Below, in pieces: positions 1,553-45,934 of a stretch of 64,000 nucleotides of DNA. The position numbers and the translations under genes were made by a program. Origin of the DNA: an uncultured Candidatus Saccharibacteria bacterium (GTDB lineage Bacteria > Patescibacteriota > Andersenbacteria > UBA10190). Within the stretch, counting starts at the first letter, position 1, and every line of letters begins with the position of its first letter. The stretch is from assembly GCA_964359735.1 (NCBI GenBank), contig CAYHTZ010000002.1:22937-86936 (forward strand), written 5' to 3'. Under the pieces are notes generated by a model. That model ran no database searches. It was not told the DNA's origin and worked only from the letters and a program-made list of their open reading frames with translations.

Positions 1553-2750
1553 GTAGGGCAATGAAAAGCCAATGGAGGGTAGCTAAGTCGTTCTTCCAGT
1601 AGATAGTGTCCGCGAGACCGAGGAGCAGTAGGGCCAATAGGGCTGTTGATACCCCTACGGCTGCCGCGGGCAGCCACTCCCCCTTCGTAAGGGGGAGAAA
1701 AGTTTTGAAAAAAATATACGCGTGAATTGTGACGAAGCTTGCAAGGCCGAGAAGGCCGGTGTTGAGCCAAAAGGAGAGGAGCCAGTTATGCGGATCACGA
1801 AAGACGAACTCAGGAAGCGGGGCGGATTCGTACTCAGTAAACCGCTCGTGCAACTTTGCCTGGTAAGCTGGCTCAAAAGTGCCCAAACCTACACCCAGGA
1901 GCGGGCGTTCGCGAATAAGATCCCAGGAGATGCTCCATAACTGCAGACGCACCTGCGCAGAACTTCCCGGTTGCTGCAGGTAATGGATTTTAGGGACGAG
2001 GAGAAAGGTTGCAACAACCCCTACCAGAATTAAAACCCCTCCCATCCTCCCCTTATCAAGGGAGGATGTCTGCTTTTCCCCCTGATAAGGGGGACTAAGG
2101 GGGTTTCTTTGGAGTATGAAGAGCCCAGCTCCGACTGCGATCAGCACTGACACGACGCCAGCCAGGGACTCCGTGAAGAGAAGAGCAAGAAACATCACGG
2201 CGGCGGCAAGGCGGCCGAATATGGAGTACGCCCGCCAAGCAAGAACAATAATGGGAGCCAGATACAATGCTAGGGAGTTTGGGACATCGTACGGACCCTG
2301 GACACGATCGAGCTGGCCGAGTTGAGAGAGACCGAGGAGTGCAACTACAAGGCCGGAAAGGACGAGGGCCGTGATGATCCAGTGCTTTAAAACCTCACCC
2401 TCCGTATGAGCGGAGACCTCTCCTTCGTAAGGAGAGGTGCTTCTCCTTGAGAAGGAGAAGCCGACTCGTGGCGAGGCGGATGAGGTGGTAAGAGCTGCAT
2501 ACACTAAAAATGCATACACGAGTGGAGTTACGATCCATCCTTTAAGAATCCCTAGACTCGTTTCCAAGTGAGGAGAGATTACTGTAGAGATTACAGCGGA
2601 GAGAAAAAACAACCCGACTAAAAAAAGAATTGGCTTAGGAATGGCCTTGGCAGTATTTATCCACGAACGGCGAATCTTTGCTTGAAAAAATCCGCTGAGC
2701 GCGACTGCCCAGACGGCCGCTTCAAGAAGCGTGGTCGGGATACCAGCCAC
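1524..2750 (-). CDS. O-antigen ligase / Wzy_C-family polytopic membrane protein.
   Basis: More than 10 predicted TM helices; GVGLGTF...RDPHNWLLSFWLNTGLLGL matches the Wzy_C core. Hairpin repeat elements lie in-frame inside the ORF (SPYEGE, PPYQGE and PLTKGEW peptides). Confidence 0.6.
   Translation of the reverse strand: MAGIPTTLLEAAVWAVALSGFFQAKIRRSWINTAKAIPKPILFLVGLFFLSAVISTVISPHLETSLGILKGWIVTPLVYAFLVYAALTTSSASPRVGFSFSRRSTSPYEGEVSAHTEGEVLKHWIITALVLSGLVVALLGLSQLGQLDRVQGPYDVPNSLALYLAPIIVLAWRAYSIFGRLAAAVMFLALLFTESLAGVVSVLIAVGAGLFILQRNPLSPPYQGEKQTSSLDKGRMGGVLILVGVVATFLLVPKIHYLQQPGSSAQVRLQLWSISWDLIRERPLLGVGLGTFEPAYQAKLHERFTEYESAPLPEFVFRDPHNWLLSFWLNTGLLGLASFVTIHAYIFFKTFLPLTKGEWLPAAAVGVSTALLALLLLGLADTIYWKNDLATLHWLFIALLISASQRMV
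1677..1697. repeat. CCTT-NNN-AAGG-core palindromic hairpin element. It lies in-frame inside the O-antigen-ligase-like gene and encodes PLTKGEW.
   Basis: CTCCCCCTT-cgt-AAGGGGGAG. A 28-nt stretch is identical to 3449-3476. Confidence 0.55.
2044..2093. repeat. Two adjacent hairpin elements of the same family, in-frame inside a coding sequence (they encode PPYQGE...LDKGR).
   Basis: ATCCTCCCCTT-atc-AAGGGAGGAT and CCCCCT-gata-AGGGGG. Confidence 0.5.
2399..2460. repeat. Three tandem hairpin elements of the same family, in-frame inside a coding sequence (they encode SPYEGEVSAHTEGE).
   Basis: CTCCG-tatgag-CGGAG, ACCTCTCCTT-cgt-AAGGAGAGGT and CTTCTCCTT-gag-AAGGAGAAG. Confidence 0.55.
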
Positions 2751-4191
2751 GGAAAAACGAACTAGGTAGGCGGGGAGAAGGAAGGCGATGAGGATGACCC
2801 CTTTTCGTAGAAAGACATAGGGTGGTAATCACTATCAGCGTAATCAACAGGTGGTTATAGAGAAAGCTGTTGACTACCTGGGAATGCAGAAAGAGCGCCA
2901 TGAGACTGCCGGCGGCCCCAAGGGCGAGAGTGTCCCCACGAAAAGCGCGGGAAAGGAAAAACGTTACAAGCCCCACCCACGGCAGGAAAAATAAGACCGC
3001 GCCGGGTACGCCCGTAGTTACGGCCAGCGTTAACCAACTGTTATCAGCGCCGGCTCGAGAGTGGATAGTGAAATCGCTCGAGAGTCCCTCCACGGCAGCG
3101 GCAAATTGATACGCGTTATAGCCTACGCCGAAGTAGGGGTGCTGCTCGCTCAGGAAAAGCGCCCCGGCCAGAGACTCCACTCGCAACGCAGCGGTTTCAT
3201 CTACGGTCAAAAGGCCGGCGAGGCGGCTCGGGGCAAGAGCTGTAACACACGCAATGAGCAGCACAGCGCTGGTAAGGGCGCTGACAGCGAGGCCAGCTCC
3301 CATCCGCCGGGGAAGACGCTGCAGCTGCCAGATGAATGCCGGAGCAAGTAAGAGAAAAGTAAGGCCGAGTGCCAGGAAGCTGCTGCGGGATTGGGTGAGA
3401 AGAAGAGCCAAGAGCGCCGCAAGCAAGACCCCTACGGCCGTGAAGCGCGGCCACTCCCCCTTCGTAAGGGGGAGAAAGCTATGAGCAAAAATCCACGGGA
3501 TCACGATGATTAATAATCCTCCAAACAAATTGGGATCGAGCCAGGTAGAAAAGAGACGGCCTTGATGCGGGTCCCATTTCGCTCCGGCCAAAGCTGGAGC
3601 TACGCGGGACAAGTCCCCTAAGTTCGGCAGCAGCACGAGTTGCAGGAAACCAATGACCACGAGTACGACGACGGCACCAACCAGAAAATGCTGAGTAGCA
3701 TTTCTGATACGAATATCACGAAAAAGAATGAGCAGTGCGGGGAAGAGCGCGAGGGTGGTGGTCAGACGAAGCCAGTAGAGGAAAGCGACCAGGAAGTTTT
3801 GGAGGCCTAAGTCGGGTACACGGGGAAGGAGGATGAAAAGGGACCAGAGGATAAAAGTAGACAGTAGGCAGTAAGCAGTAAGCAGAAGGGGTGATTTTTT
3901 GCTGCGCTGTATACTGTGTACTGCATACTGTTTTCTTGCTCCTTGGCTAAATAGCCTTTGGAGAAGCGCGGCGCCTAGTACGAGCACAGTCGCAACATCG
4001 CTCACCAACAACCCTCCTCCCTGGCCGGGAAGGGGAACCCGAAAGAGCTGCCCGGCTATGAGCGAGAGGATGAGAGTGCCAGTGGCAAGTTTAGGAAAGC
4101 GTAGCGCCCAGGCGCCTGTGCAGAGTACAGTCAGTGCACCTCCGGCGAGAAATACCGGTACAGGCGACGCAAGAAGCGCTGTAGCCCCCAT
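2722..4191 (-). CDS. O-antigen ligase / Wzy_C-family membrane protein, a paralog of the preceding gene. The true start is uncertain because the annotated start overlaps the upstream GT2 gene by 61 nt.
   Basis: Polytopic membrane protein with GVGYNAY...HSRAGADNSWLTLAVTTGVPG. Shares the FLPLTKGEW segment with its neighbour; the two loci share an identical 28-nt stretch. Confidence 0.55.
   Translation of the reverse strand: MGATALLASPVPVFLAGGALTVLCTGAWALRFPKLATGTLILSLIAGQLFRVPLPGQGGGLLVSDVATVLVLGAALLQRLFSQGARKQYAVHSIQRSKKSPLLLTAYCLLSTFILWSLFILLPRVPDLGLQNFLVAFLYWLRLTTTLALFPALLILFRDIRIRNATQHFLVGAVVVLVVIGFLQLVLLPNLGDLSRVAPALAGAKWDPHQGRLFSTWLDPNLFGGLLIIVIPWIFAHSFLPLTKGEWPRFTAVGVLLAALLALLLTQSRSSFLALGLTFLLLAPAFIWQLQRLPRRMGAGLAVSALTSAVLLIACVTALAPSRLAGLLTVDETAALRVESLAGALFLSEQHPYFGVGYNAYQFAAAVEGLSSDFTIHSRAGADNSWLTLAVTTGVPGAVLFFLPWVGLVTFFLSRAFRGDTLALGAAGSLMALFLHSQVVNSFLYNHLLITLIVITTLCLSTKRGHPHRLPSPRLPSSFFRGWYPDHAS
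3454..3474. repeat. Hairpin element of the same family, in-frame in the second ligase paralog.
   Basis: CTCCCCCTT-cgt-AAGGGGGAG. Confidence 0.55.
3856..3934. repeat. Heptamer-array palindromic element: four GTARRCA (CAGTARR) direct heptamers plus three inverted ACTGNNN heptamers, lying in-frame in the 5' part of the ligase paralog.
   Basis: gtagaca gtaggca gtaagca gtaagca ... actgtgt actgcat actgttt. Confidence 0.45.
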
Positions 4192-4892
4192 ATCATTGGA
4201 GAGTAGTGTTTGTGAAAGTATTTGTCAGCTGACTTGTCATATAACTGAGTTTTGCGGCGCGTATCAGAAAGACTCCTGCCCCGCTGATGGAAAACCTGAA
4301 TATAAGGAAAGTACATGACTTGGCCACCCTGCTGGCAGAGGCGCCGGCTTAAATCAATATCCTCCCAGTAGAGAAAGAACTCCGGATCGAAGCCGCCGAC
4401 TTTTTCAAACATTGCCCGGCGCACCAGCAGAGCTGCGCCGGACACCCACCCCACGGGGGTGGGTGTAGACGGAATTTCTGGACGGCGGCGCCGGTGCGTG
4501 AAAAGAGAAAAGAGCGTAACCGGCGGACCGAAACTTACCTCAGGCTTACCCGTAGGGTCTACCAATTGAAAGCCGAGCGCCGCTACATCCGGATGAGACT
4601 CAAGGTAGGTGAGTGCGGTCTCCAGTGAAGGCTCCTTGAGATACGCGTCTGGGTTCAGAAATAAAATGCAGGGGCTCTGGCCAAGCGTAGCTCCTTGGTT
4701 CGCCCCGGCAGCGAAGCCAAGGTTTTTACTTTGAGAGTGGGGCGCAACTCCTAGGGTAGCGAGGGTAGCCACAGTGTCATCTTGGGAGGCATTATCAACC
4801 ACAACAATACGGGCATCTTTCGGGAGGCTTTGTAGACACTGCGCAGCTGTGCCAGCGTTGTTATACGTCACCACTACAACATCAACTTTCAT
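4131..4892 (-). CDS. Family 2 glycosyltransferase.
   Basis: N-terminus MKVDVVVVTYNN...VVVDNASQDDT is the GT2 signature. The start was moved to the internal Met because the ATG overlaps the stop of the upstream GT2 gene (ATGA at 4889-4892). Confidence 0.75.
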   Translation of the reverse strand: MKVDVVVVTYNNAGTAAQCLQSLPKDARIVVVDNASQDDTVATLATLGVAPHSQSKNLGFAAGANQGATLGQSPCILFLNPDAYLKEPSLETALTYLESHPDVAALGFQLVDPTGKPEVSFGPPVTLFSLFTHRRRRPEIPSTPTPVGWVSGAALLVRRAMFEKVGGFDPEFFLYWEDIDLSRRLCQQGGQVMYFPYIQVFHQRGRSLSDTRRKTQLYDKSADKYFHKHYSPMIWGLQRFLRRLYRYFSPEVH

Positions 4893-5755
4893 GGCCGCTG
4901 GCCTGTGCGGTGAAGAACGGCATCGCGCAGCGCTTGTCGAATCGTGCGCACAGAGGGCGAGGCCGGCTGAAGGTTGTGGTAGATGAGGCGCAGCAAGTTG
5001 AGCAGGCGCCAAAGCCAGCGCCACGGGCGGGGAGAATTACTCTGCAGAAACATGGCTCCGTTGCGAACCAGGTAGTAGAGATGGTCGGAGTCGGACTGGC
5101 TGGGAGGCGCATCATCGTGTGTGACGGGAAGACCGGAAATAACTTTTAGGGGAATTCCCATTTGCCGGGCTCGTAGAGAAAATAGGACATCTTCCCAATA
5201 CATGAAAAAATGGTTGGGCAGCCCTTGGAGGGTAAGAAATGTGTTTAAGGGGGCGCTGAGAAATGACCCATGAAGATAGGTTAAGTGGAATCTGGAAGCT
5301 GCCCACCACTTCGGCGGGTCCGCCGTGCTGGCGGAGAGCTTGGAATCAATTGTTGTTCGCCCAGTTACGAGGTTCACTTGACCCAATTTTATCCCTGCGA
5401 TGGCGGGCGCGGGGTTAGTCTGCCACCAGGCAATAACCTTTTCTACTGTATCAGGCGAGACTTCACTGTCATTGTTGAGAAGGATTACGATATCGCTCCG
5501 GGATGTTCGTTGCCCCAAAAGAAACCCTAAGCCAAAGTTAACGCCGCCGGCGTAGCCAGCGTTTCGGGCGGGGCGGATGATGGCAACACGTTTATCCCCC
5601 CAGAAATCAGGCAAGGAAGCTGGCCCATGGTCAACTACGATGATGCGATCGGGGAGGCGCTGGGAGTGGAGCAGCTGTTCAACAAGTGTTTTCGTGGGCA
5701 GGCTCTCGCCATAGTGGACAGTCACAATATGATACTTTTTGGTTTGTGGAATCAT
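4889..5755 (-). CDS. Family 2 glycosyltransferase.
   Basis: HIVTVHYGE...RIIVVDHGP...ILLNNDSEV is a GT2 (rhamnosyltransferase-like) fold signature. Confidence 0.75.
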   Translation of the reverse strand: MIPQTKKYHIVTVHYGESLPTKTLVEQLLHSQRLPDRIIVVDHGPASLPDFWGDKRVAIIRPARNAGYAGGVNFGLGFLLGQRTSRSDIVILLNNDSEVSPDTVEKVIAWWQTNPAPAIAGIKLGQVNLVTGRTTIDSKLSASTADPPKWWAASRFHLTYLHGSFLSAPLNTFLTLQGLPNHFFMYWEDVLFSLRARQMGIPLKVISGLPVTHDDAPPSQSDSDHLYYLVRNGAMFLQSNSPRPWRWLWRLLNLLRLIYHNLQPASPSVRTIRQALRDAVLHRTGQRP

Positions 5756-23515: not shown

Positions 23516-23533
23516 CCTGGTCTTAACCCCTTC

Positions 23534-23574
23534 CCGCCCTGCTACAGGGCGGCTCTCCCCTTCGTAAGGGGGAG
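23534..23574. terminator. Tandem GC-rich hairpins (candidate terminator). The second hairpin belongs to the CCTT-NNN-AAGG repeat family.
   Basis: CCGCCCTG-cta-CAGGGCGG and CTCCCCTT-cgt-AAGGGGGAG. Confidence 0.4.
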
Positions 23575-23595: not shown

Positions 23596-23958
23596 GTGAC
23601 TCAGGTTTTTAACCGTTTCTCCGAGCGACAAAAGAGACAAGAATTACGTGAAGTGATGCCAAAAGCAGAAGTGGTTTTGTGGTCGCAACTTCAGCGTAGG
23701 CAGTTTGATGGCCACAAGTTTCGTCGCCAGTGCAGCATTGGGCGATACGTTGTGGACTTCTACTGTCCGCGGTCCAGGCTGGTGATTGAGCTTGATGGTG
23801 ATTCGCATTTCAATGATGTGGCAGAAAAGTATGATCGGGTTCGTAACCAGTATATGGAGTCACTTGGCTTAAGGGTTGTGAGGTTTACGAATGAAGATGT
23901 GAGGAAGAACTTGTCCAGGGTGTTACAGAGAATACGTGGAGCATTGGTCTCCTTTTGA
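23596..23958 (+). CDS. DUF559 (Vsr-like endonuclease fold) domain protein.
   Basis: VLWSQLQRRQFDGHKFRRQCSIGRYVVDFYCPRSRLVIELDGDSH...DRVRNQYMESLGLRVVRF is typical of DUF559. Confidence 0.65.
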   Translation: MTQVFNRFSERQKRQELREVMPKAEVVLWSQLQRRQFDGHKFRRQCSIGRYVVDFYCPRSRLVIELDGDSHFNDVAEKYDRVRNQYMESLGLRVVRFTNEDVRKNLSRVLQRIRGALVSF

Positions 23959-23966: not shown

Positions 23967-23987
23967 CCCCTCCTTACGAAGGAGGGG
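23967..23987. repeat. Intergenic hairpin element of the same family, downstream of the DUF559 gene.
   Basis: CCCCTCCTT-acg-AAGGAGGGG. Confidence 0.5.
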
Positions 23988-24104
23988 AGAAACCGAGCAG
24001 AGCGAGGAGGGGTGGTTTTCGGAGCAAAAGCCTGTGGATAAGTCATTGTTTAGATGAGTGCTATGCTTATTAGAGCCAAATAGGTCTGAGTAAAACAAAC
24101 ATAA

Positions 24105-32888: not shown

Positions 32889-33605
32889 ATGACGGCGCTC
32901 CGTACCCGCGTTTTGCGGTTCATTTGGCAGTTGTACCCGGATCGCATCCGAGGATACCGGTTTTGGCGCCAGCTTAAGAGGATCGCCCAGGCGAGGCCGA
33001 GGTTATTTTTTATTCAGATTGGCGCGAACGACGGGGTGGTGGCGGACCCTCTCCGTCAGTTCATCTTGAAGTACCGCTGGCGGGGCATCTTGGTGGAACC
33101 GCTGCCGGCCGCTTTCCAGGCGCTTAAACGGAATTATCACGGAGTGGAAGGCTTGCAGTTTGAGAATTCAGCGATTGGGAAGGAGGCAGGAGAGGCGACG
33201 CTCTACTATCTCAAGAACAGCGAGCAGCTCGTGCGATGGTGCGGCAGCATAGCATCATTCTCGAAGGAACATGTGCTCAAGCACCGTTGGGCTGTCCCAG
33301 GGATGGAACATTTAATAGAAGAAGTGCGAGTGCCCACCCTGTCGTTTCCTCAACTTCTCGAGAAGTATCACGTGCGCCAGCTTGATCTCGTGTGCATTGA
33401 CGTGGAAGGGTTTGACTGGGAGGTTATGCAACAGATTCCCTTTGATCGCTGGCGGCCGGCCGCCATTATGTACGAGCACGTCCATCTGAAAGATGTGGAG
33501 AAAGCAGCCTGTGAGCGTTTGCTCGAGGGCCACGGTTACACTCTGGCGCGCACTTCGCGCGATACGCTTGCTGTAAGGTATGAAGCGAACACTACACAAC
33601 CTTAA
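32889..33605 (+). CDS. FkbM-family methyltransferase.
   Basis: FFIQIGANDGVVADP...VCIDVEGFDWEV matches the FkbM family pattern. Confidence 0.7.
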   Translation: MTALRTRVLRFIWQLYPDRIRGYRFWRQLKRIAQARPRLFFIQIGANDGVVADPLRQFILKYRWRGILVEPLPAAFQALKRNYHGVEGLQFENSAIGKEAGEATLYYLKNSEQLVRWCGSIASFSKEHVLKHRWAVPGMEHLIEEVRVPTLSFPQLLEKYHVRQLDLVCIDVEGFDWEVMQQIPFDRWRPAAIMYEHVHLKDVEKAACERLLEGHGYTLARTSRDTLAVRYEANTTQP

Positions 33606-34011
33606 CGAAGTACAAGCGCTCGCCCAGGAGTTAGCAGCGCGCCTCCGCGGCGGAGAAGTGTGGCTGCTGTCGGGCCCGCTGGGTGCGGGCAAGACCACAT
33701 TCGTACAAGCGCTCGCGCGGGAATTAGGCGTTCAAGATATCGTTAACTCTCCTACGTATACGATTGCTGCTGAGTATGCTGTTCCTGATCACAACTTCAT
33801 CAAAACGCTGGTGCACGTGGATTTATACCGTCTCTCCGAACATGCCGGCGGTGATCCCGCCGTGCGAGATGTACTGGAGCGAGCGGGAAAGGAGCGTCTC
33901 ACGGTGATTGAGTGGGCGGAGCGGTTGGGGGAAAGTGTGCCAGCCGGAACATGGATTCGGTTTGACTACGGGGATGAAGCAGGCGAGAGAGTGGTTATGC
34001 TTGATGATTAA
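33580..34011 (+). CDS. tsaE: tRNA threonylcarbamoyladenosine biosynthesis protein TsaE.
   Basis: LSGPLGAGKTTFVQALAREL...NSPTYTIAAEY...HVDLYRL are TsaE/YjeE motifs. Confidence 0.8.
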   Translation: MKRTLHNLNEVQALAQELAARLRGGEVWLLSGPLGAGKTTFVQALARELGVQDIVNSPTYTIAAEYAVPDHNFIKTLVHVDLYRLSEHAGGDPAVRDVLERAGKERLTVIEWAERLGESVPAGTWIRFDYGDEAGERVVMLDD

Positions 34012-36110: not shown

Positions 36111-36128
36111 AGTCGGTAGAATCTAAAG

Positions 36129-36215
36129 GATGGCCAAAACCCCCAAACTCGCCTTGATCGACCCCACTTCGCTAAAGCTTCGCGGGGCAGGCGCCCATGC
36201 TATTTATGGCTCGTA
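36129..36215 (+). other. 28-codon upstream mini-ORF. Its first 12 codons duplicate the PolA N-terminus at the amino-acid level, and it is preceded by an AAAGGA Shine-Dalgarno-like sequence.
   Basis: MAKTPKLALIDP against PolA MARNPKLALIDA. 7 of 10 codon differences are synonymous. The mini-ORF ends with TAA overlapping the polA start, in a different frame. Confidence 0.35.
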
Positions 36216-38932
36216 ACCCTAAACTTGCTCTGATTGATGCTCATGCGCTCATCCATCGCGCCTATCATGCTCTGCCGCCCATGAGTACACGGGAGGGGCT
36301 GCCCACCAATGCAGTCTTTGGGTTTACAACTATGCTGCTTAAGATGTTTTCCACGCTGAAGCCGACACACGTGGTCGCCGCTTTTGATGTGAAAGGGAAA
36401 ACATTTCGGGCCAAGGAGTATGCCGAGTACAAAGCGCACCGCAAAGAAATCGATGCAGAACTCGCGGCGCAGTTTGAACCGGTGAAAGATGTACTGAGAG
36501 CATTTAGCATCCCGGTCATTTTTAAGAAAGGTTTTGAAGCTGACGATGTGATTGGCACAATTGTCGAGCGCTTGAACGGTAAGATGCGTACGGTGATCGT
36601 GACAGGCGACATGGACACGCTGCAGCTGGTGGACGGCGACACGAGCGTCTTTACGTTGAAGCGCGGGGTCACGGACACGATTCTCTACACGCCGGAGCTC
36701 GTGCGCGAGAAGTACGGATTTGGGCCCGAGCACATTGTTGATTACAAAGGACTCGCGGGGGATCCCTCGGATAATATCCCCGGAGTGGCGGGGGTGGGGC
36801 AAAAGACGGCCCAGGAACTCATTACCCAGTTTGGGTCGGTGGAAGAAATTTTTGCGGGCGTAGGAAAAATTCCTGAGAAGCTGCGCAAGAAGCTGGCAGG
36901 CAAAAAGAAAGAGGCGTTTCTCTCGAAGAAGTTGGCGACGATTAAGCGGGACGTGCCCATCGCGTTTGTGATTTCCGAGGCGGAGCTCGCCGGCTACGAC
37001 ACCGAAAAAGTGCGCGACGTGTTTGAGAAGTTTGAGTTCAGAAGCCTCTTGGCCAAACTACCGGCGGGAGGAACGGGCATACAGCCGACACTGTTTGCGG
37101 CTGCCCAGAAGACAGTAGACAGTAAACAGGATACAGAGCTGCCGGAGAATTATCATTTAGTAGAAACAAAGAAAGATGCGGAAGTGTTCAAGAAAGAGCT
37201 CCAAGGGGCCAAGATGGTGGCATTTGATACAGAAAACGATTCGCTAGGCGTGCAGTACCCCATTGTGGGTATGAGTTTTGCTGTGAAGAAGGGGAAGAAG
37301 ATTGAGGCCTACTATGTCCCGGTGAATCCCGAGAGTGTGAAGGCGTGGAAAGGCGTATTGGAGGATCAAGATATTCCGAAGACGGGCCACAACTTAAAGT
37401 ACGACATGAAAATATTGGCCCAATCGGGTATTGAGCTTAGGGGAGTTGTATTTGATTCCATGCTGGCAAGCTACTTGCTGCACCCGGGGGCGCGAGCACA
37501 TGGGCTGGACACGCTGTCGGTGCAGGAGCTTGGTCACCACCCGATCCCGCTGACCAGTTTGATAGGATCAGGCAAAGACCAGAAAAGAGTTTCGCAGGTG
37601 CCGGTAATCGAGTTAGCCCGGTACGCGGCGGAGGATGCGGAGCTGGCGCTGCGTTTGTACGAAGCGCTGAGCGGGCAGCTTAAAAAAGAAAAACTGACGC
37701 GCGTGTTGGAAGAGTTGGAAATGCCGCTTCTGCCGGTGTTAGTAGACATGGAACTCACGGGCGTGGCGGTGGATGCGGGGCAGCTCACGAAGTTGCAGAA
37801 GACGGTGGCCAAGCGGATTGAGAGCTTGCAGCGCCGGATATGGAAGGAAGCGGGAGAAGAGTTCAATATTAATTCTACGCAACAGTTGCGCGAGATATTG
37901 TTCAACAAACTCAAGCTTTCAACAGTGGCGATTGCTCGCAAGCAGTCTGGGTTTTCGACAGCGGCCAGTGAGCTGGACAAACTGATGGGCCAGCACCCGA
38001 TTATTGGACTTTTGGCGCAGTACCGGGAGCTCACCAAATTACAGAATACCTATATAGAAGTGTTGCCGGAGTTGGTGGCTAATAAGACAGGCAGGATTTA
38101 TGGCGAGTTTAACCAGGTGGTGGCGGCCACGGGCAGGATTTCGAGCCAGAACCCGAACTTGCAGAATATTCCCGCGCGGACAGAGCTGGGGCAGGAAATT
38201 CGGGCCGCATTTGTAGCACCGAAAGGGAAAGTGTTGGTGAAAGCCGATTACTCTCAAATTGAACTCCGGCTAGCCGCACATTTATCACAAGATGAAAACA
38301 TGACTGCCGCCTTTCGAGCCGGGGAGGACATTCATGCGGCCACCGCCGCCCGGGTGTATGGCGTGGACGTGAAGGATGTGCAACCGAAGCAGCGTCGAGC
38401 CGCGAAAACGCTCAACTTCGGCGTACTGTATGGCATGGGGCCGCAAAGTTTTGCGCGGGCGGCTAAGGTGAGCGTGGAAGAAGCGCGTTCATTTATTGGG
38501 CGGTATCGGGAACAGTACAGTGGCCTGACCAAATTCATCGAGGCTACCTTAGAAGAAGCACGGGCGACCCAGACAGTTACGACCATGTTTGGCAGAAAGC
38601 GCCACATGCCGGAAATTAACTCTCGTGCGCCCATGATACGCGCGCAAGCAGAGCGGGTAGCATTTAATTTCCCCTTGCAAGGCAGCGCGGCGGACATTTT
38701 AAAGAAAGCGATGATTCAGCTTCACGAGCATTTAAAGAAAAAGTATCCCAAGGCAAAACTGGTGCTGACCGTGCATGACGAACTGGTTGCAGAAGTGCCC
38801 GAAAAAGACGCCAAGAAGGTAGCGGCCGACATGAAGAAAATCATGGAAAGCGTAGCCACGCTGGACGTGCCCCTGGTGGTAGATGCCTCCGTCGGCAAAA
38901 ACTGGCGGGATATGACCCCTACCCCCGCCTAA
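36197..38932 (+). CDS. polA: DNA polymerase I (5'-3' exonuclease, 3'-5' exo-like domain, polymerase).
   Basis: LALIDAHALIHRAYHALPP 5' nuclease signature; pol-A motifs (DYSQIELR, RRAAKTLNFGVLYG, VHDELV). Confidence 0.9.
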   Translation: MLFMARNPKLALIDAHALIHRAYHALPPMSTREGLPTNAVFGFTTMLLKMFSTLKPTHVVAAFDVKGKTFRAKEYAEYKAHRKEIDAELAAQFEPVKDVLRAFSIPVIFKKGFEADDVIGTIVERLNGKMRTVIVTGDMDTLQLVDGDTSVFTLKRGVTDTILYTPELVREKYGFGPEHIVDYKGLAGDPSDNIPGVAGVGQKTAQELITQFGSVEEIFAGVGKIPEKLRKKLAGKKKEAFLSKKLATIKRDVPIAFVISEAELAGYDTEKVRDVFEKFEFRSLLAKLPAGGTGIQPTLFAAAQKTVDSKQDTELPENYHLVETKKDAEVFKKELQGAKMVAFDTENDSLGVQYPIVGMSFAVKKGKKIEAYYVPVNPESVKAWKGVLEDQDIPKTGHNLKYDMKILAQSGIELRGVVFDSMLASYLLHPGARAHGLDTLSVQELGHHPIPLTSLIGSGKDQKRVSQVPVIELARYAAEDAELALRLYEALSGQLKKEKLTRVLEELEMPLLPVLVDMELTGVAVDAGQLTKLQKTVAKRIESLQRRIWKEAGEEFNINSTQQLREILFNKLKLSTVAIARKQSGFSTAASELDKLMGQHPIIGLLAQYRELTKLQNTYIEVLPELVANKTGRIYGEFNQVVAATGRISSQNPNLQNIPARTELGQEIRAAFVAPKGKVLVKADYSQIELRLAAHLSQDENMTAAFRAGEDIHAATAARVYGVDVKDVQPKQRRAAKTLNFGVLYGMGPQSFARAAKVSVEEARSFIGRYREQYSGLTKFIEATLEEARATQTVTTMFGRKRHMPEINSRAPMIRAQAERVAFNFPLQGSAADILKKAMIQLHEHLKKKYPKAKLVLTVHDELVAEVPEKDAKKVAADMKKIMESVATLDVPLVVDASVGKNWRDMTPTPA

Positions 38933-38942
38933 CGGCCGGTAC

Positions 38943-39029
38943 TCCCCCTTCGTAAGGGGGAGAAAGGTTTTGTAGGTCAGTTTTCCCCTCCTTACGAAGG
39001 AGGGGATGGTCGACCCGCCGGCTGGCGGG
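38943..39029. terminator. Three consecutive GC-rich hairpins after polA; two of them belong to the CCTT-NNN-AAGG repeat family.
   Basis: CTCCCCCTT-cgt-AAGGGGGAG, CCCCTCCTT-acg-AAGGAGGGG and CCCGCC-ggct-GGCGGG. Confidence 0.45.
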
Positions 39030-39108
39030 GAGACGGGGAGGTGTATACTCTTGCTCTTTTTTGCAGTCTGTTGTACAGAGGTTAGCTAAGTCTTAATTAA
39101 GAAATCTT

Positions 39109-39363
39109 ATGAGTTTTGAATCCATTTCCCGCAGTGCGATTTTCTTTGTAGTGATGGTTGCTATGGCGCTGAGCCTTTCTCCTACGCGCCAGCCCTTCCC
39201 AGCACCTTCTCCAAGCCCTACTCTGGAACCTCTGCCGTCACCGTATGTTGAGAAGGAATCGCCTGAAGTTGATCTGGATTTTGATCTTGATAGTGAAGGT
39301 GGTTTGTTTCCGAAGCCATATAACGGATCGCAGCCTGAGTCGGATCAAGGTATTCCTGAATGA
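39109..39363 (+). CDS. Small secreted Pro-rich protein, with a paralogous leader to the gene at 39881.
   Basis: Signal peptide MSFESISRSAIFFVVMVAMALS and a Pro-rich mature part. About 110 nt of the 5' UTR plus signal-peptide sequence is duplicated at 39821-39940. Confidence 0.4.
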   Translation: MSFESISRSAIFFVVMVAMALSLSPTRQPFPAPSPSPTLEPLPSPYVEKESPEVDLDFDLDSEGGLFPKPYNGSQPESDQGIPE

Positions 39364-39405
39364 ATAAGAGGAGAACGGGATTCCTGAAAATGGTTTGGTG
39401 TAAAC

Positions 39406-39430
39406 AGCTGCGTAACGCAGGTTTTTGGTT
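39406..39430 (+). terminator. Small stem-loop followed by a T-run after the 39109 gene.
   Basis: CTGCG-taa-CGCAG followed by gtttttgg. Confidence 0.35.
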
Positions 39431-39491
39431 ATTGAATAGTCACTTCCTAGCTTGAAAAATTTGGGTGGAAGGTCTAGCACTAATAGTAAGT

Positions 39492-39827
39492 ATGAAAGGG
39501 GTAGTTGGATTACTTGTAAATGTTTTCCTGGTGGGTGTTTTGATGGTCCCGTTTGTAGAGGCTACATCTACGCCGTTTCCTGAGCCCTCCTTTATCAAAT
39601 ACAGAGTTGCGTGGATGGACTTGGCTACTGGCGTTATTACTCGTGGGGCACCAATATACGACAGCCCTAACGCGGCGCAATGGTGGGCGGACACATGGAA
39701 TTGGCTCTTTCGCGGCAGCAGGTTTTACTGGGTAGAAGCGGTGGACATGCTCACGATGAAAATGGTGCCGCTCCCGGCTGCTCCCGCGCCAGCCGCTCCA
39801 GCTCCCATGCCAGTAGTGCCACTTTGA
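39492..39827 (+). CDS. Small secreted protein (hypothetical).
   Basis: MKGVVGLLVNVFLVGVLMVPFVEA signal-like N-terminus; Trp-rich mature region and a C-terminal PAAPAPAAPAP tail. Confidence 0.35.
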   Translation: MKGVVGLLVNVFLVGVLMVPFVEATSTPFPEPSFIKYRVAWMDLATGVITRGAPIYDSPNAAQWWADTWNWLFRGSRFYWVEAVDMLTMKMVPLPAAPAPAAPAPMPVVPL

Positions 39828-39880
39828 GCCCTTGCATTTTTTGGGGGTCTGTTGTACAAAACCTGGTTACATCTAACTGT

Positions 39881-40501
39881 ATGTTTATGAATTTTGAGAA
39901 TGTTGCCCGCAGTACGATTGTGTTCGTAGTCATGCTTGCTATGTCGGTGAGCACAGTGAGCGTGGCGTCGGCTGAGGTTCTCACGCCTCGCGAGCCGATT
40001 CCCGCTCCAGCGCCAGGTGCGGGAACCGTAGAGCTTCTTCCACCTCCGAAGGTGCAGACGCCAGAGCTTTTACCCCCGCCGAAGGAAGTTCCACGCGGTC
40101 CTGTCAAGGTTAAAGCGGATGACCCAAGGGTGCGAGAGATTCTCACTAGACAATTCAAGGATCTCGAGGAGAAAATTCCTTCTATAAAAGATCCTCGCTT
40201 GCAACAGCTGGCCTGGGAAGGATTCTTGGCCCGTTTGCAGCGGTGGTACAGTGTGAACTGTGATGCAAAAACAGGCGAAGCAAAGAATAGGAATCCAGTG
40301 ACCACGGCGAATTGTGCTGCGGTGAAAGAGCTCATTCGACAGGTGCAAGGGAAAATCTCGTGGCTCCAAGGAGTAATTGATAAGAGGGTTGCCATGGTGA
40401 CCCCGCTGCCGGTGCCGACAACTGTGGTTTCAACTTCAAGTAATACTTCAGATGCTCAAGTCCTCGCGAGTATCATGAGTGAAATCGATCTCGTGCTGTA
40501 A
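39881..40501 (+). CDS. Secreted Pro-rich protein, paralog of the 39109 gene.
   Basis: Signal peptide MFMNFENVARSTIVFVVMLAMSVS, PAPAPG...LLPPPK repeats, and a conserved upstream GTCTGTTGTACA motif. Confidence 0.45.
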   Translation: MFMNFENVARSTIVFVVMLAMSVSTVSVASAEVLTPREPIPAPAPGAGTVELLPPPKVQTPELLPPPKEVPRGPVKVKADDPRVREILTRQFKDLEEKIPSIKDPRLQQLAWEGFLARLQRWYSVNCDAKTGEAKNRNPVTTANCAAVKELIRQVQGKISWLQGVIDKRVAMVTPLPVPTTVVSTSSNTSDAQVLASIMSEIDLVL

Positions 40502-40524
40502 GATAAGAGCTTACGTTTATGCTA

Positions 40525-40552
40525 AAGCGCCCACGCACCGTGGGCGCTTTTT
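40525..40552. terminator. Bidirectional rho-independent terminator between convergent genes.
   Basis: AAA-GCGCCCAC-gcacc-GTGGGCGC-TTTTT: an 8-bp GC stem flanked by A-runs and T-runs. Confidence 0.65.
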
Positions 40553-41597
40553 ACGATCCGAATCTGGCGACGCAGAGATTGTACTGGTCAATTTGGGCGT
40601 TGAGTTGGTTGGCTAGATCAATCAGCTCATTGTTAATAGCGTTGAGCTGGTCAATGAAGCTGTTGTAGGCTGAGCGGCGCTCTTCAATTTTTGGTTCCAA
40701 CTCGCGGGCTTGGTTGTGCAGAGCTTCGCCTTCCGCCCACAGCCGCTCGGCTTCTTCTTGGTCACCCCGGCGCGCGGCGGCGTTACCCTCTTCAATTTTT
40801 TGGTTACCTTCACGCACTAAGCGATCGTGCTCGGCAATCAAGCGTTCCAGCTCAGCTTGGGTGCGGTCGAGTTCTACTTCAATTTGCTCAGTGAGGGCTT
40901 TCTTTTGATCAAACTGTTGGCGCAGCGTGGGCGAAGGGCCGGGGCAAGCGGAGGAAGGAGTGCCGAAGGTTTGCACGGCCAGCCAGGTTTGCTCACCTTG
41001 GAAAGTGCCTTGAGCTGTCGCGACACCTATTTCCGCAAAATGTTGGTTCAGAATATTAGCGCGGTGGCCGGGGGAAGACATCCAGGCGTTCACCAAAGCA
41101 GCATCTCCGGCGAAATTCCCCAGCGCTAAGTTTTCGCCGACGGCGATGTAGGCGTAGTTGGTATCCTCCACCCAATCGGCGGGCCCGCGTCCGTCGGGGC
41201 CAATGTGGTCGAAGTACTGTTTTTGGAACATGTCGTTCACCTTGGCCTGCGCGGCTGCTGCCAGCTTGGCGTTGAGAGGGAGAGCGGGTAAGCCCGCCTC
41301 AGCGCGGTGGCGGTTCGTTTCCGCAATGGTGCCAGAGGCGGTAAGCGTTTGTGCCGGCGCATCAGTGCGGCCGCGCAGCGGACCGGGAGTGGTAATTTCA
41401 GTGACGGGTTGCTGAAGTACAGGGAGAGATGGTAGGGAGATACCTTGCGGCAAACTTACATTGGGCAAGTTGTTGGTAAGTTCACTCAGCTTGCTATTCA
41501 GTAAACTGTTGGGGTCTTGCCACTGCTGCACGCCTACACCCACACCACCGAGAATTACGGCGAGTAACACTAGTAAAACGATGACGCGCCCGAACAT
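40551..41597 (-). CDS. CAP/SCP/PR-1 superfamily secreted protein with a C-terminal coiled-coil.
   Basis: N-terminal TM/signal segment; CAP motifs (HRAEAGLPAL, GENLA, SSPGHRANIL, FAEIGVA); a Glu/Arg/Leu-rich heptad tail. Confidence 0.7.
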   Translation of the reverse strand: MFGRVIVLLVLLAVILGGVGVGVQQWQDPNSLLNSKLSELTNNLPNVSLPQGISLPSLPVLQQPVTEITTPGPLRGRTDAPAQTLTASGTIAETNRHRAEAGLPALPLNAKLAAAAQAKVNDMFQKQYFDHIGPDGRGPADWVEDTNYAYIAVGENLALGNFAGDAALVNAWMSSPGHRANILNQHFAEIGVATAQGTFQGEQTWLAVQTFGTPSSACPGPSPTLRQQFDQKKALTEQIEVELDRTQAELERLIAEHDRLVREGNQKIEEGNAAARRGDQEEAERLWAEGEALHNQARELEPKIEERRSAYNSFIDQLNAINNELIDLANQLNAQIDQYNLCVARFGS

Positions 41598-44533: not shown

Positions 44534-45934
44534 TTGCTTAAACAAGCCACAAATTTTGGAGTGTGGGTAGTGAGCGGTGCGCTGCTCTTCGGTGCACTGG
44601 GCATTGTGCTGTTCGCCACGCCGCTTTTAGGGAATCGCGCGTTAATTGTCCGCTCGGGTTCGATGGAGCCGGCAATTAGCGTAGGAGATGTGGTAGTCGT
44701 GCGGCCAGGGGAATACCAGGCGGGAGATGCCATTGCCTACAACGTTCCCGGTAAGGAGAACATGGTGGTCACCCATCGCGTTCAAGAAGTGCGGGAGGGC
44801 GCAACAGGGTTTGAGTATGTTACCAAGGGGGATGCGAACCCGGAGGCAGACAGCTGGGTGGTTACTGGTGGAGATATTATTGGTGAAGAGCTCTTCACGG
44901 TGCCGTGGGTGGGGACACTGCTCGCCTTTGCCAAATCAAGAATTGGCTTCGTGAGTTTGGTAGTGATACCAGCGCTGGTGGTGGTGTTAAGCGAGATACG
45001 TGTGATTTGGCGAGAGATGAGGAAGAAGGTACCCACCTTCGCCACCCTTCGACCCCGAGCTCAGGGCCGAGGGGAGGCCACGGTGGGCAGGCCGGTGTTG
45101 GAGAGAGGAAATCCACCCTTAGTCTCTCCTTTATCAAGGAGGGAAACAGTGGACTCCTCCCTTGATAAGGGGAGACAGGGAGGGATTTCTTTGCCCAAGC
45201 CAGTGTATATGTCGACGCTCTCCTTTGTCGGCAATTCTCCTCCACAGAGACGCACGTTTGTAGATGGTGTGGTGAGAAGGAGCATGAGCTTTGCCTTAAT
45301 TGTGGTGGCGGCTTCGGTCATGACCCCAGCCACATTTGCGCTGTACGCAGACAGCGGCACAAGTTCGAATAACGTATTTACGGCGAGCGACGATTTTGGG
45401 GTTGGGCCAGGTGATGTGGTGATCAATGAAATTATGTGGATGGGTACAGACGAGGGTCCACATGACGAATGGATTGAATTGCGTAACATGACGAGTGATC
45501 CTATTGACCTGACTGGTTGGACGCTCCTGAATGCAGGAGGTGGCGGCAGTTCGTCTGATGACATTACTTTATCGGGGACGATTTTGGGTGATGGTTACTG
45601 GCTATTGGGTAACAATAATTCCGCGAGTTCAGCGATTGTTAATACTACAACTGTTGATCAGGTCACAACAAATGTTGAGCTAAGTAATGGAGGAGAACAG
45701 CTCACACTGAAGGATCCTGGTGGATTCACTATTGATGCTAGCCCTGTGACCAGTGGTTCTTGGCCGCTCGGAGATAATAGTTCTGGGCAACAATCGATGT
45801 CGCGTAACCTTACTCCGGGTGATGGGATTGTTGTGAGTAATTGGCACACATGTACCGATGCGGCGTGTAACGACACGACATATTGGGATGCAGAAGGGGA
45901 CGATTACGGTACTCCTAAGGCGGCGAATCTATGA
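44534..45934 (+). CDS. sipW: SipW-type (S26B, archaeal/eukaryal-like) signal peptidase I, continuous in-frame with a second module: a TasA-like N-terminal region plus a lamin-tail domain that carries its own SipW-cognate-like signal starting at 45284.
   Basis: SGSMEP catalytic Ser box and a C-terminal TM (residues 1 to about 165). A linker then contains the in-frame hairpin repeat (45124-45174). MSFALIVVAASVMTPATFALYADSG...NVFTA follows, then VINEIMW...DEWIELRN...LTGWTL, a lamin-tail domain. Confidence 0.65.
   Translation: MLKQATNFGVWVVSGALLFGALGIVLFATPLLGNRALIVRSGSMEPAISVGDVVVVRPGEYQAGDAIAYNVPGKENMVVTHRVQEVREGATGFEYVTKGDANPEADSWVVTGGDIIGEELFTVPWVGTLLAFAKSRIGFVSLVVIPALVVVLSEIRVIWREMRKKVPTFATLRPRAQGRGEATVGRPVLERGNPPLVSPLSRRETVDSSLDKGRQGGISLPKPVYMSTLSFVGNSPPQRRTFVDGVVRRSMSFALIVVAASVMTPATFALYADSGTSSNNVFTASDDFGVGPGDVVINEIMWMGTDEGPHDEWIELRNMTSDPIDLTGWTLLNAGGGGSSSDDITLSGTILGDGYWLLGNNNSASSAIVNTTTVDQVTTNVELSNGGEQLTLKDPGGFTIDASPVTSGSWPLGDNSSGQQSMSRNLTPGDGIVVSNWHTCTDAACNDTTYWDAEGDDYGTPKAANL
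45124..45174. repeat. Two hairpin elements of the same family lying in the SipW / TasA-like-LTD junction; read in-frame they encode SPLSRRE...LDKGRQGG.
   Basis: CTCTCCTT-tatc-AAGGAGGG and CTCC(T)CCCTT-gat-AAGGGGAG. Confidence 0.5.

What the first reader, a model, noticed from the sequence alone, without database searches (positions are those of the whole stretch)
1677..45174. Dispersed family of short GC-rich hairpin elements (CCTT-NNN-AAGG core) that occur both as intergenic terminator-like structures and as in-frame insertions inside protein-coding genes
At least 14 copies at 8 loci in 64 kb share an invariant core: a pyrimidine-rich arm ending in CCTT, a 3 to 4 nt loop (CGT, ACG, ATC, GAT, GAG), then AAGG and a purine-rich arm. 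The loci are 1677, 2044-2093, 2399-2460, 3454, 23555, 23967, 38943/38985 and 45124-45174. Four loci are intergenic and sit just 3' of genes (after the CDP-alcohol transferase gene, after DUF559, after polA). The other four are read through in-frame: three in the two O-antigen-ligase-like paralogs and one in the SipW fusion junction. The in-frame copies add short hydrophilic peptides (SPYEGE, PPYQGEK, PLTKGEW, LDKGRQGG) inside otherwise hydrophobic membrane proteins. This is the behaviour described for Rickettsia palindromic elements, which insert in-frame into ORFs, and I do not know of it being described for this kind of genome. The 28-nt identity between copies 1674-1701 and 3449-3476 also shows recent homogenisation.
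Basis: seen in the sequence. Interest (0 to 1): 0.68.

Follow-up and report, generated by a model that had tools for sequence, protein, structure and literature searches.

The report
Hairpin repeat modules tied to DUF559 nuclease
The short GC-rich hairpins are real. They are the core of a small three-part DNA repeat found in many bacterial phyla, which sits between genes, inserts in-frame into protein loops, and characteristically brackets a small Vsr-like (DUF559) nuclease gene, a link I could not find described.

Summary
Observation confirmed. There are 12 CCTT-N3-4-AAGG sites against 2.6 expected, giving 13 pyrimidine-arm/purine-arm hairpins at the 8 named loci.

Each hairpin is part of a larger module. 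A third segment mirrors the adjacent stem arm (for example AACCTCCCC). It is joined to the hairpin by a 3-nt linker or a GC-rich stem-loop. Modules occur singly (1651-1697, 3428-3474) and as inverted doublets (2034-2105, 2391-2487, 38915-39044, 45109-45188). One inverted pair brackets a 120-aa DUF559 nuclease gene (23525-24017).

The exact 21-mer occurs in more than 119 loci from about 50 genomes of about 10 phyla.

The DUF559 link is the main result:
- Of 80 metagenomic DUF559 genes chosen by protein similarity alone, 61 have such a hairpin within 150 nt upstream and 59 downstream.
- Hairpin density is 5.0 per kb in the gene flanks and 0.26 per kb elsewhere.
- All 19 DUF559 loci on viral contigs show the same arrangement.

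In-frame insertion is supported. One Wzy insert is absent from all 29 aligned homologs, and a homolog carries a module in a different loop.

The hairpins are not canonical terminators. The SipW-LTD protein is not a fusion.

Best reading: a selfish repeat family with gene-less derivatives, probably served by the DUF559 nuclease. Mobility itself is inferred, not shown.

The parts
1651..1697 (+). Single module A. Third segment ACCCCTAC (1651-1658), GC-rich linker stem-loop GGCTGCC-gcg-GGCAGCC (1659-1675), hairpin CTCCCCCTT-CGT-AAGGGGGAG (1677-1697). Read in-frame on the minus strand in Wzy ORF 1524-2750 as FLPLTKGEWLPAAAVGV.
2034..2105 (+). Inverted doublet B. AACCCCTCC, then hairpin 2043-2068 (loop ATC, one bulge), a short spacer, hairpin 2077-2094 (loop GATA), CTAA, then GGGGGTT. 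In-frame in Wzy ORF 1524-2750 (NPLSPPYQGEKQTSSLDKGRMGGV), in a length-variable loop inside the Wzy_C domain.
2391..2487 (+). Inverted doublet C with GC-rich linker stem-loops. AACCTCACC, stem-loop 2400-2415, hairpins 2416-2438 (loop CGT) and 2439-2461 (loop GAG), stem-loop 2462-2480, third segment GATGAGGTG. In-frame in Wzy ORF 1524-2750. It encodes about 28 aa absent from all 29 aligned homologs.
   Evidence: (z = -7.7)
3428..3474 (+). Single module D. ACCCCTAC, linker stem-loop GGCCGTG-aag-CGCGGCC (3436-3452), hairpin 3454-3474 (identical 21-mer). In-frame in the second Wzy ORF 2722-4191 (FLPLTKGEWPRFTAVGV). Present at the same loop in some orthologs and absent from others.
23525..23574 (+). 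Left end of the DUF559 unit. AACCCCTTC, linker stem-loop CCGCCCTG-cta-CAGGGCGG (23534-23552), hairpin CTCCCCTT-CGT-AAGGGGGAG (one bulge).
23596..23958 (+). DUF559 gene, 120 aa. A Vsr-like PD-(D/E)XK nuclease domain only (Pfam PF04480, E = 2.8e-33). The closest solved structure is 3hrl 'endonuclease-like protein' (E = 5.6e-19).
23967..24017 (+). Right end of the DUF559 unit. Hairpin CCCCTCCTT-ACG-AAGGAGGGG (23967-23987), a 21-nt linker, third segment GGGGTGGTT (24009-24017), which matches the mirror of the purine arm at 9 of 9 positions.
38915..39044 (+). Gene-less inverted doublet G. It has the same architecture as the DUF559 unit, with a 21-nt spacer in place of the gene. Hairpins at 38942-38962 (loop CGT) and 38984-39006 (loop ACG), linker stem-loop CCCGCC-ggct-GGCGGG, third segment GGGGAGGTG. 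Its left end supplies the last five codons and the stop codon of polA (ORF 36197-38932).
   Evidence: (z = -5.0)
45109..45188 (+). Inverted doublet H, a degenerate copy. AAATCCACCCT, hairpins 45123-45144 (loop TATC) and 45154-45174 (loop GAT), then AGGGAGGGATTT. In-frame in the variable linker of the signal-peptidase/LTD protein (ORF 44534-45934).

Best explanation
The hairpins are the core of a structured repeat module of about 33-50 nt. A third segment repeats the adjacent stem arm in mirror order. It is joined to a 7-10 bp pyrimidine/purine hairpin by a 3-nt linker or a self-contained GC-rich stem-loop.

Modules occur in three forms: singly, as inverted doublets of 70-130 nt that resemble MITEs (miniature inverted-repeat transposable elements), and as an inverted pair bracketing a small gene for a DUF559 (Vsr-like PD-(D/E)XK) nuclease.

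I read this as a selfish repeat family. The DUF559-carrying unit is the autonomous form, and the gene-less singles and doublets are its far more numerous derivatives.

Shown: the architecture, the copy excess, the cross-phylum spread, the tight DUF559 association, the local mirror rule, and presence/absence among orthologs including in-frame copies.

Inferred:
- The nuclease recognises and nicks the folded module (hairpin plus third strand, most simply an intramolecular triple helix on single-stranded DNA) and so starts copying or homing.
- Only copies that keep the frame open and fall in tolerant loops survive inside genes.
- The G-rich third segment often doubles as the ribosome-binding site of the nuclease gene.
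For: Copy excess.

Compound architecture in the window.

These include the cultured isolates Aquisphaera insulae and Leptothoe spongobia. The conserved upstream AACCCCCTC-NNN is present across phyla. My own estimate of the chance expectation is about 0.3 hits in 596 Gb.

DUF559 association: loci were selected by protein similarity only.
- 61 of 80 have a hairpin upstream and 59 of 80 downstream, with loops that are reverse complements in many loci.
- 31 of 80 have the full arrangement module - gene - inverted module.
- Hairpin density is 5.0 per kb in the ±200 nt flanks and 0.26 per kb elsewhere.
- 19 of 19 loci on viral contigs, at 33-42% protein identity, show the same arrangement.
- Many of the 32 DUF559 cluster representatives I read carry N- or C-terminal extensions such as PPLTKGRLGGV, which are translated modules.

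Gene-less forms greatly outnumber gene-carrying ones: 2 of 119 hairpin-selected loci have the gene.

Mirror rule:
- 76% of 451 hairpins have a mirror partner on exactly one side, against 24% with permuted arms.
- At stem A positions the partner has A 57, T 38, C 1, G 1, and the linker is 3 nt in 48 of 71.
- Where the two ends of a unit differ, each third segment fits its own hairpin better than the other end's in 32 of 36 comparisons and never worse.

Insertion polymorphism and DNA-level conservation.

Ribosome-binding site: the third segment ends 1-13 nt before the start codon in 15 of 27 units.

Related enzymes: the Vsr/DUF559 clade includes a proven homing endonuclease, I-Bth0305I (PMC3239194, PMC3424549).
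Against: - No filled-versus-empty allele pair for the DUF559 unit was found among the loci held, so movement of the gene or the modules has not been seen directly.
- No target-site duplication is evident.
- DUF559 is not a known transposase, and this 120-aa protein has no separate DNA-binding domain.
- In one planctomycete genome the module is embedded in a different MITE of about 135 nt with its own terminal repeats, so modules can be carried by other vehicles.
- Some orthologs share the insert at the same site. Copies can therefore be old and vertically inherited rather than recently mobile.
- The triplex is a sequence inference only. Runs of C+·G-C triplets are unfavourable at neutral pH, and G-quadruplex or alternative Watson-Crick pairing is also possible.
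Confidence: 0.55

Rival explanations
1. The modules are an independent REP-like (repetitive extragenic palindrome) repeat family, spread by some other means or maintained by the host. The DUF559 gene is then a free-standing homing-endonuclease-type parasite that targets module doublets and lodges between the two halves. On this reading the nuclease does not move the modules.
For: - The gene sits exactly where gene-less doublets have a 7-50 nt spacer.
- Both doublet polarities exist, and the gene occurs in both (31 against 4 of 80).
- Relatives of this nuclease fold are proven homing endonucleases (PMC3239194).
- Modules also ride in an unrelated MITE.
Against: - The gene's ribosome-binding site is frequently the third segment itself, and gene and ends co-vary across very divergent lineages. 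This argues for a long-standing integrated unit.
- No other candidate mobilising gene recurs beside the modules.
Confidence: 0.25
2. The modules are host-beneficial structural or regulatory elements, such as mRNA 3' or 5' stabilisers, translation controllers, or protein or topoisomerase binding sites. The DUF559 gene is simply a gene regulated by them, or a housekeeping nuclease that processes such structures.
For: - The hairpin sequence is conserved at nucleotide level while the linker stem-loops change with compensations.
- The mirror rule is maintained locally.
- Most copies are intergenic: 22% are deep inside long ORFs against 74% for random positions.
- The third segment resembles a Shine-Dalgarno site.
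Against: - Copies occur in-frame inside coding regions at non-homologous positions of paralogs and orthologs.
- The exact sequence is shared across phyla.
- Presence/absence varies among orthologs.
- The hairpins at the intergenic loci have no terminator T-run.
- The association is specific to one small nuclease gene rather than to gene ends in general.
Confidence: 0.12
3. There is no element. The hairpins are chance low-complexity matches or the DNA image of a conserved peptide motif (PLTKGE and similar).
For: - Pyrimidine/purine arms have low complexity, so identical stems can arise convergently.
- Some orthologs share LPLTKGE at the same loop.
Against: - Strong excess over shuffles.
- The same DNA is read in different frames and strands, and lies in intergenic DNA.
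- The peptide sits at non-homologous positions.
- The 21-nt DNA is 100% conserved where the proteins are about 50% identical.
- Flanking third segments and linkers are conserved.
Confidence: 0.02

Closest known systems
REP/REPIN elements with their RAYT (REP-associated tyrosine transposase, IS200/IS605-like) genes
   Same: Short imperfect palindromes dispersed mainly between genes. They are often inverted doublets, and a single-copy gene is flanked by the same repeats. Recognition is presumed to depend on DNA structure in single-stranded DNA.
   Different: - The flanked gene is a Vsr-like PD-(D/E)XK nuclease (DUF559), not a Y1 transposase.
- There is no 5' GTAG or CGTC head (PMC3733652 defines these).
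- The stems are strictly pyrimidine/purine.
- There is an extra mirror-repeat third segment.
- Near-identical sequences occur across phyla.
Rickettsia palindromic elements (RPE; Ogata et al. 2000, as cited in PMC3184786)
   Same: Palindromic repeats that insert in-frame into protein-coding genes and add short peptide segments. Other copies are intergenic or extend the 3' ends of genes.
   Different: - The host range is different and far wider.
- The units are shorter (47-130 nt against about 105-146).
- A cognate nuclease gene is present.
- I did not compare sequences with RPEs.
MITEs (miniature inverted-repeat transposable elements)
   Same: Gene-less derivatives that share their ends with a rarer gene-carrying unit. 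They have terminal inverted repeats, many copies, and fold into a long hairpin or cloverleaf.
   Different: No target-site duplication was seen, the cargo is not a recognised transposase, and single half-elements are common.
EDxHD / Vsr-like homing endonucleases (I-Bth0305I, PDB 3r3p)
   Same: The same nuclease superfamily clade (Vsr, DUF559, DUF2726; PMC3424549), and a selfish-gene lifestyle.
   Different: I-Bth0305I is intron-encoded and has N-terminal NUMOD DNA-binding modules (nuclease-associated modular DNA-binding domains). It recognises an ordinary duplex target. The proteins here are the bare 110-120 aa nuclease domain, flanked by structured repeats.
E. coli YcjD (DUF559) and the neighbouring dispersed repeat, which I recall as 'Box C' (from memory, not verified with the tools)
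   Same: ycjD is followed by CCCTCT-GGGG-AGAGGG-TTA-GGGTGAGGGG. That is a hairpin, a 3-nt linker and a mirror third segment. This 68-nt stretch has a median of 17 places per genome in 5426 E. coli genomes.
   Different: The E. coli copy looks decayed: there is no upstream module and the 3' end of the gene is partly duplicated. I examined only this one E. coli copy in detail.
H-DNA / intramolecular triplex-forming mirror repeats
   Same: Homopurine-homopyrimidine mirror repeat with a 3-nt turn. The third strand carries G opposite G and A or T opposite A, as in purine-motif (reverse-Hoogsteen) triplets.
   Different: The tracts are very short (7-10 nt) and fused to a hairpin, so the structure would form from one strand. 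No experimental evidence exists.

Membership tests
REP/REPIN-RAYT | Short (20-40 nt) imperfect palindromes, dispersed and mostly extragenic | tested here: met
   22% of copies lie deep in long ORFs against 74% of random positions.
REP/REPIN-RAYT | Conserved GTAG or CGTC tetranucleotide at the 5' end of the palindrome (PMC3733652) | tested here: not met
   The sequences show AACCYCCCC / GGGGRGGTT third segments instead. The GTAG in the Andersenbacteria variant GTAGGGGT lies 3' of the linker stem-loop, which is the wrong side.
REP/REPIN-RAYT | Cognate Y1 (IS200/IS605-like) transposase gene flanked by the repeats | tested here: not met
   The flanked gene is DUF559. No recurrent other gene lies beside the hairpins. 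Whole genomes were not searched for RAYTs.
Rickettsia palindromic elements | In-frame insertion into protein-coding genes, adding peptide segments absent from orthologs | tested here: met
Rickettsia palindromic elements | Sequence membership in an RPE family, with Rickettsiales as host | not tested
   No RPE sequences were compared. The host here is Candidatus Andersenbacteria.
MITE | Terminal inverted repeats shared with a gene-carrying autonomous element | tested here: met
   The doublet at 38915-39044 and the DUF559 unit at 23525-24017 have the same ends.
MITE | Target-site duplication flanking the insertion | tested here: inconclusive
   No obvious duplication in the flanks read. No empty site was available to define exact ends.
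MITE | The autonomous partner encodes a transposase | not testable with these tools
   DUF559 is a nuclease fold with no demonstrated transposase activity.
Vsr-like / EDxHD homing endonuclease genes | Vsr-like PD-(D/E)XK catalytic domain | tested here: met
   Pfam DUF559 E = 2.8e-33. PDB 3hrl E = 5.6e-19. The residues D54, E65, D67 and H71 are invariant in alignment A2.
Vsr-like / EDxHD homing endonuclease genes | Separate sequence-specific DNA-binding module (NUMOD/HTH) and residence in an intron or intein | tested here: not met
   The protein is 120 aa and consists of the nuclease domain only. It is a free-standing gene.
Vsr-like / EDxHD homing endonuclease genes | Cleaves the gene-less allele and is copied into it | not testable with these tools
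   No empty/filled allele pair was found.
Intrinsic terminators | GC-rich hairpin followed immediately by a T/U run | tested here: not met
   None of the hairpins at 23555, 23967, 38942 or 38984 is called in the scan of 23000-41000. Their tails are CAAATTTG, AGAAACCG, AAAGGTTTTG and TGGTCGAC. The in-ORF loci were not scanned.
H-DNA / intramolecular triplex motif | Homopurine-homopyrimidine mirror repeat with a short turn | tested here: met
H-DNA / intramolecular triplex motif | Physical formation of a triple helix | not testable with these tools
   The folding tools model Watson-Crick pairs only.

The most novel reading that the evidence does not exclude
A previously unrecognised, pan-bacterial class of selfish element. 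A bare Vsr-like (DUF559) nuclease gene is bracketed by ends that fold into hairpin-plus-third-strand (intramolecular triplex) structures. It has thousands of gene-less single and double modules seeded through genomes from Patescibacteria to Planctomycetes, Chloroflexi, Cyanobacteria and Proteobacteria. These include in-frame copies in protein loops and, probably, the long-unexplained E. coli repeat next to ycjD. The nuclease would recognise DNA shape rather than sequence.
Probability: 0.35. Interest if true: 0.85.

Novelty: new variant of a known kind. Interest (0 to 1): 0.76.

Why it matters
DUF559 is a very large family: 10,848 clusters at 50% identity with E ≤ 1e-10. It has a solved structure (3hrl) and an E. 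coli member (YcjD) but no known function. Small palindromic repeats other than REP/RAYT mostly lack a known cognate enzyme.

A specific and repeatable link between the two gives both a testable function. The nuclease can be assayed on a 35-50 nt oligonucleotide, and the mirror rule predicts which mutations should matter.

It also explains a class of odd peptides (PLTKGE, PPYEGG, PPLxKGGxGGV and similar) that litter predicted proteins from metagenomes. In addition it shows that Candidate Phyla Radiation (CPR) bacteria with small genomes tolerate repeat insertions inside membrane-protein genes.

If the triplex reading holds, it would be a natural, widespread use of a three-stranded DNA fold as a recognition device.

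Tried and rejected
- Rfam gathering scan of the window: no RNA family hit. No tRNAs were found.
- Literature searches by sequence, by DUF559, by YcjD/COG2852, and by combinations of CPR, palindromic and in-frame terms found nothing that links DUF559 to flanking hairpin repeats. Searches for 'Box C' gave nothing usable, so that name rests on memory.
- I looked for any other gene recurrently next to the hairpins in 119 hairpin-selected loci. There was none beyond DUF559. ORFs lying between spaced module pairs are ordinary host genes, apart from one further DUF559.
- I looked for filled/empty allele pairs among all loci held and found none.
- I considered that the third segment exists only to pair with its partner at the other end of the element. 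I rejected this as the primary constraint, because each third segment follows its own hairpin when the two ends differ. That pairing does exist in doublets.
- I considered a direct-repeat origin for the third segment. It fits only 20% of hairpins, against 76% for the mirror model.
- I considered canonical terminators and rejected them.
- Site 21526 (TCACCCCTT-CCGT-AAGGGTGA) was not accepted as a member. The 4442 hairpin was left undecided.


Full report
**1. Observation**

The pattern CCTT-N3-4-AAGG occurs 12 times in the window, against 2.6 expected from dinucleotide-preserving shuffles (maximum 7). Reading the sites shows pyrimidine-only 5' arms and purine-only 3' arms of 7-10 bp around 3-4 nt loops. 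Such hairpins dominate all perfect stems of at least 8 bp in the window. With one mismatch allowed there are 18 against 2.9 in shuffles.

I count 13 hairpins at the eight named loci. Site 21526 looks like chance. Three copies are the identical 21-mer CTCCCCCTTCGTAAGGGGGAG. Folded as single-stranded DNA, the elements have z-scores of -2.7 to -7.7.

The window comes from Candidatus Andersenbacteria (Patescibacteria), judging by the names carried by homologs of its Wzy proteins.

**2. Anatomy**

The hairpins are not the whole element. Each has, on one side only, a third segment. An example is ACCCCTAC / AACCCCTCC upstream, or GGGGTGGTT / GGGGAGGTG downstream. It is joined to the hairpin by about 3 nt or by a GC-rich stem-loop of 17-19 nt.

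I call 'third segment - linker - hairpin' a module. The window holds:
- two single modules (1651-1697 and 3428-3474);
- four inverted doublets (2034-2105, 2391-2487, 38915-39044, 45109-45188);
- one inverted pair at 23525-24017 that encloses a 120-aa DUF559 gene (Pfam E = 2.8e-33; closest structure 3hrl).

The doublet after polA has the same architecture as the DUF559 unit, with a 21-nt spacer where the gene would be. Its left end provides the last five codons and the stop codon of polA.

**3. Distribution**

By record title these include Planctomycetota, Patescibacteria, Chloroflexota, Gamma- and Alphaproteobacteria, Cyanobacteria, Clostridia, Poribacteria, Ignavibacteriales, Spirochaetes and Elusimicrobia. 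Two are cultured isolates. My own estimate of the chance expectation for a 21-mer in 596 Gb is about 0.3.

Aligning the flanks shows a conserved AACCCCCTC-NNN directly upstream across phyla. Often a second, inverted hairpin (CCCCTCCTT-ACG-AAGGAGGGG) follows 8-25 nt downstream, as in the window.

Across these loci, 22% of copies lie deep inside a long open frame, against 74% of random positions. The family is therefore mainly intergenic, with a real in-ORF minority.

**4. Link to DUF559**

Only 2 of the 119 hairpin-selected loci carry a DUF559 gene, and both lie directly beside the hairpin. No other gene recurs there.

The converse test is decisive. Eighty metagenomic loci were chosen only by similarity to an alignment of three DUF559 proteins.
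- Sixty-one have a pyrimidine/purine hairpin within 150 nt upstream and 59 within 150 nt downstream.
- In many loci the upstream and downstream loops are reverse complements of each other: ATGA/TCAT, GCCGG/CCGGC, GCAC/GTGC, TCT/AGA.
- Hairpin density is 5.0 per kb in the ±200 nt flanks and 0.26 per kb in the rest of the same loci.
- The commonest arrangement is hairpin - third segment - gene - third segment - hairpin (31 of 80). The window's polarity, with the third segments outside, occurs in 4 of 80.

All 19 DUF559 loci found on viral contigs, at only 33-42% protein identity, show the same bracketing.

The family is large: 10,848 clusters at E ≤ 1e-10. Many of the 32 representatives I read carry terminal extensions such as PPLTKGRLGGV or SPPYQGGAGEV, which are translated modules.

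In 15 of 27 units the G-rich third segment ends 1-13 nt before the start codon, so it probably serves as the ribosome-binding site.

Independently, a published screen lists 'DUF559 domain-containing protein' among the gene families enriched in predicted inversion targets (table in PMC9881135). This fits genes bracketed by inverted repeats.

**5. Mirror rule**

The third segment is the adjacent stem arm written backwards.
- Of 451 hairpins with stems of at least 7 bp, 76% have such a partner within 0-7 nt on exactly one side (2% on both). This compares with 24% when arms are permuted among hairpins, and 20% for a direct-repeat model.
- It co-varies with the stem. AAGGAGGGG pairs with GGGGAGGTT, AAGGGGGAG with GAGGGGGTC, AAGGAGAGG with GGTGAGGTT, and AGGGAGAGGG with GGGTGAGGGT.
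- When the alignment is chosen on G positions only, the positions opposite stem A carry A 57, T 38, C 1, G 1. The linker is 3 nt in 48 of 71. Shared ancestry may inflate these counts.
- In 18 DUF559 units whose two hairpins differ, each third segment fits its own hairpin (0.99) better than the other end's (0.83). This holds in 32 of 36 comparisons and is never reversed. The relation is therefore local to the module and is not a by-product of pairing between the two ends.
- A linker that is either 3 nt or a closed stem-loop is what one expects if the third segment must fold back on the hairpin.

The simplest physical reading is an intramolecular triple helix, with G·G-C and A/T·A-T triplets on the purine-rich strand. 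This is inference. The tools model Watson-Crick pairs only, and G-quadruplex or alternative pairings are not excluded.

**6. In-frame copies**

*First Wzy protein.* The 2391-2487 doublet encodes about 28 aa that all 29 aligned homologs lack. The other two elements lie in length-variable loops. Homologs P0004 and P0005 carry SPPLLLPLTKGETQEGV in a different loop. At DNA level that is a hairpin with third segments on both sides.

*Second Wzy protein.* LPLTKGE is present at the same loop in some orthologs and absent from others. In the three orthologs read, the hairpin DNA is conserved and the third segment GTAGGGGT is kept, although the proteins are about 43-53% identical. Two carry the identical 21-mer and the third a shortened variant (ACC loop) without a linker stem-loop. 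In those two the linker stem-loop has a different sequence, a clean stem in one (L203), as in both window copies.

*Signal-peptidase/LTD protein.* It has the same domain architecture in its homologs, so it is not a fusion. The element lies in its variable linker. The closest homolog has a doublet with different stems and loops at the same place, and others have nothing.

**7. What it is not**

None of the intergenic hairpins is followed by a T-run or called terminator-like. No Rfam family matches. There is no GTAG or CGTC head and no Y1 transposase, so it is not a REP/RAYT system in the defined sense (PMC3733652).

**8. Mechanism and rivals**

I favour a selfish repeat family whose autonomous form is the DUF559 unit. 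The nuclease would recognise the folded module and nick it to start copying (confidence 0.55).

The main rival is that modules spread or persist independently and the nuclease gene merely homes into doublets (0.25). A host regulatory role is less likely given the in-frame copies and the cross-phylum identity (0.12).

No movement has been observed. I found no empty/filled allele pair and no target duplication. In one planctomycete the module rides inside a different MITE of about 135 nt.

**9. Known relatives**

The Vsr/DUF559 clade includes the intron-encoded homing endonuclease I-Bth0305I (PMC3239194, PMC3424549). In-frame palindromic repeats are known from Rickettsia and other bacteria (PMC3184786).

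E. coli ycjD (DUF559) is followed by a hairpin - TTA - mirror segment. It belongs to a repeat with a median of 17 places per E. coli genome. I recall this repeat as 'Box C', but could not verify the name.

I found no paper connecting DUF559 to flanking structured repeats. The library searched is incomplete, so this is absence of evidence only.

Noticed in passing
Alignment A1 of Wzy homologs, e.g. P0003, P0009, P0043: Other Andersenbacteria Wzy homologs carry peptides such as ITNYKLQITNY, RITNYEL and NYKLQITN in the same variable loops. This looks like a second, unrelated in-frame repeat family.
   Followed up: no
window 4442-4466: A perfect 11-bp hairpin, ACACCCACCCC-ACG-GGGGTGGGTGT, lies inside ORF 4131-5024 (minus strand). 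It has the family's ACG loop and a C-rich arm, but the arm contains A's and no third segment is evident. It may be a diverged relative.
   Followed up: partly
window 40524-40550: A perfect 12-bp hairpin, AAAGCGCCCACG-CAC-CGTGGGCGCTTT, sits exactly between convergent ORFs 39680-40501 (+) and 40551-41597 (-). It resembles a bidirectional terminator and is unrelated to the pyrimidine/purine family.
   Followed up: no
L003-L113 (Planctomycetaceae NORP218 loci): In this genome the module is embedded in a repeat of about 135 nt with its own 11-nt terminal inverted repeats (GGGAACCTCTA ... TAGAGGTTCCC). At least 26 copies are present in the loci held. The module is being carried by a different MITE.
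   Followed up: partly
L205 2195-2420 (E. coli K-12, downstream of ycjD): The last ~40 nt of ycjD are duplicated about 60 nt downstream (GGAGACGGTGCTGGAGAATATTC...GAACCG), followed by degenerate module remnants. This suggests a decayed second DUF559 3' end.
   Followed up: no
L124, L143, L149, L157, L159, L163, L182: In many DUF559 units the upstream stem is CCTCCCC and the downstream stem is CCCCTCC, which are mirror images of each other. Each third segment could therefore also form Watson-Crick pairs with the hairpin arm at the opposite end. This would be an alternative long-range pairing state, and I cannot say what it means.
   Followed up: partly
L132 144-735 and 1023-1361: Two DUF559 genes lie within 1.3 kb, each flanked by modules. 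This is a tandem or nested arrangement.
   Followed up: no
window 1-64000: GC skew is positive in every 2-kb bin across the whole window, although genes lie on both strands. The window therefore lies within one replichore (one replication arm of the chromosome).
   Followed up: no
window 63-1552: A TraG/VirB4-like P-loop ATPase and a type IV secretion pilin lie directly upstream of the two Wzy genes.
   Followed up: no
L202: The linker of this ortholog's module contains GCGAAGC. I recall this as an exceptionally stable DNA mini-hairpin sequence (from memory).
   Followed up: no
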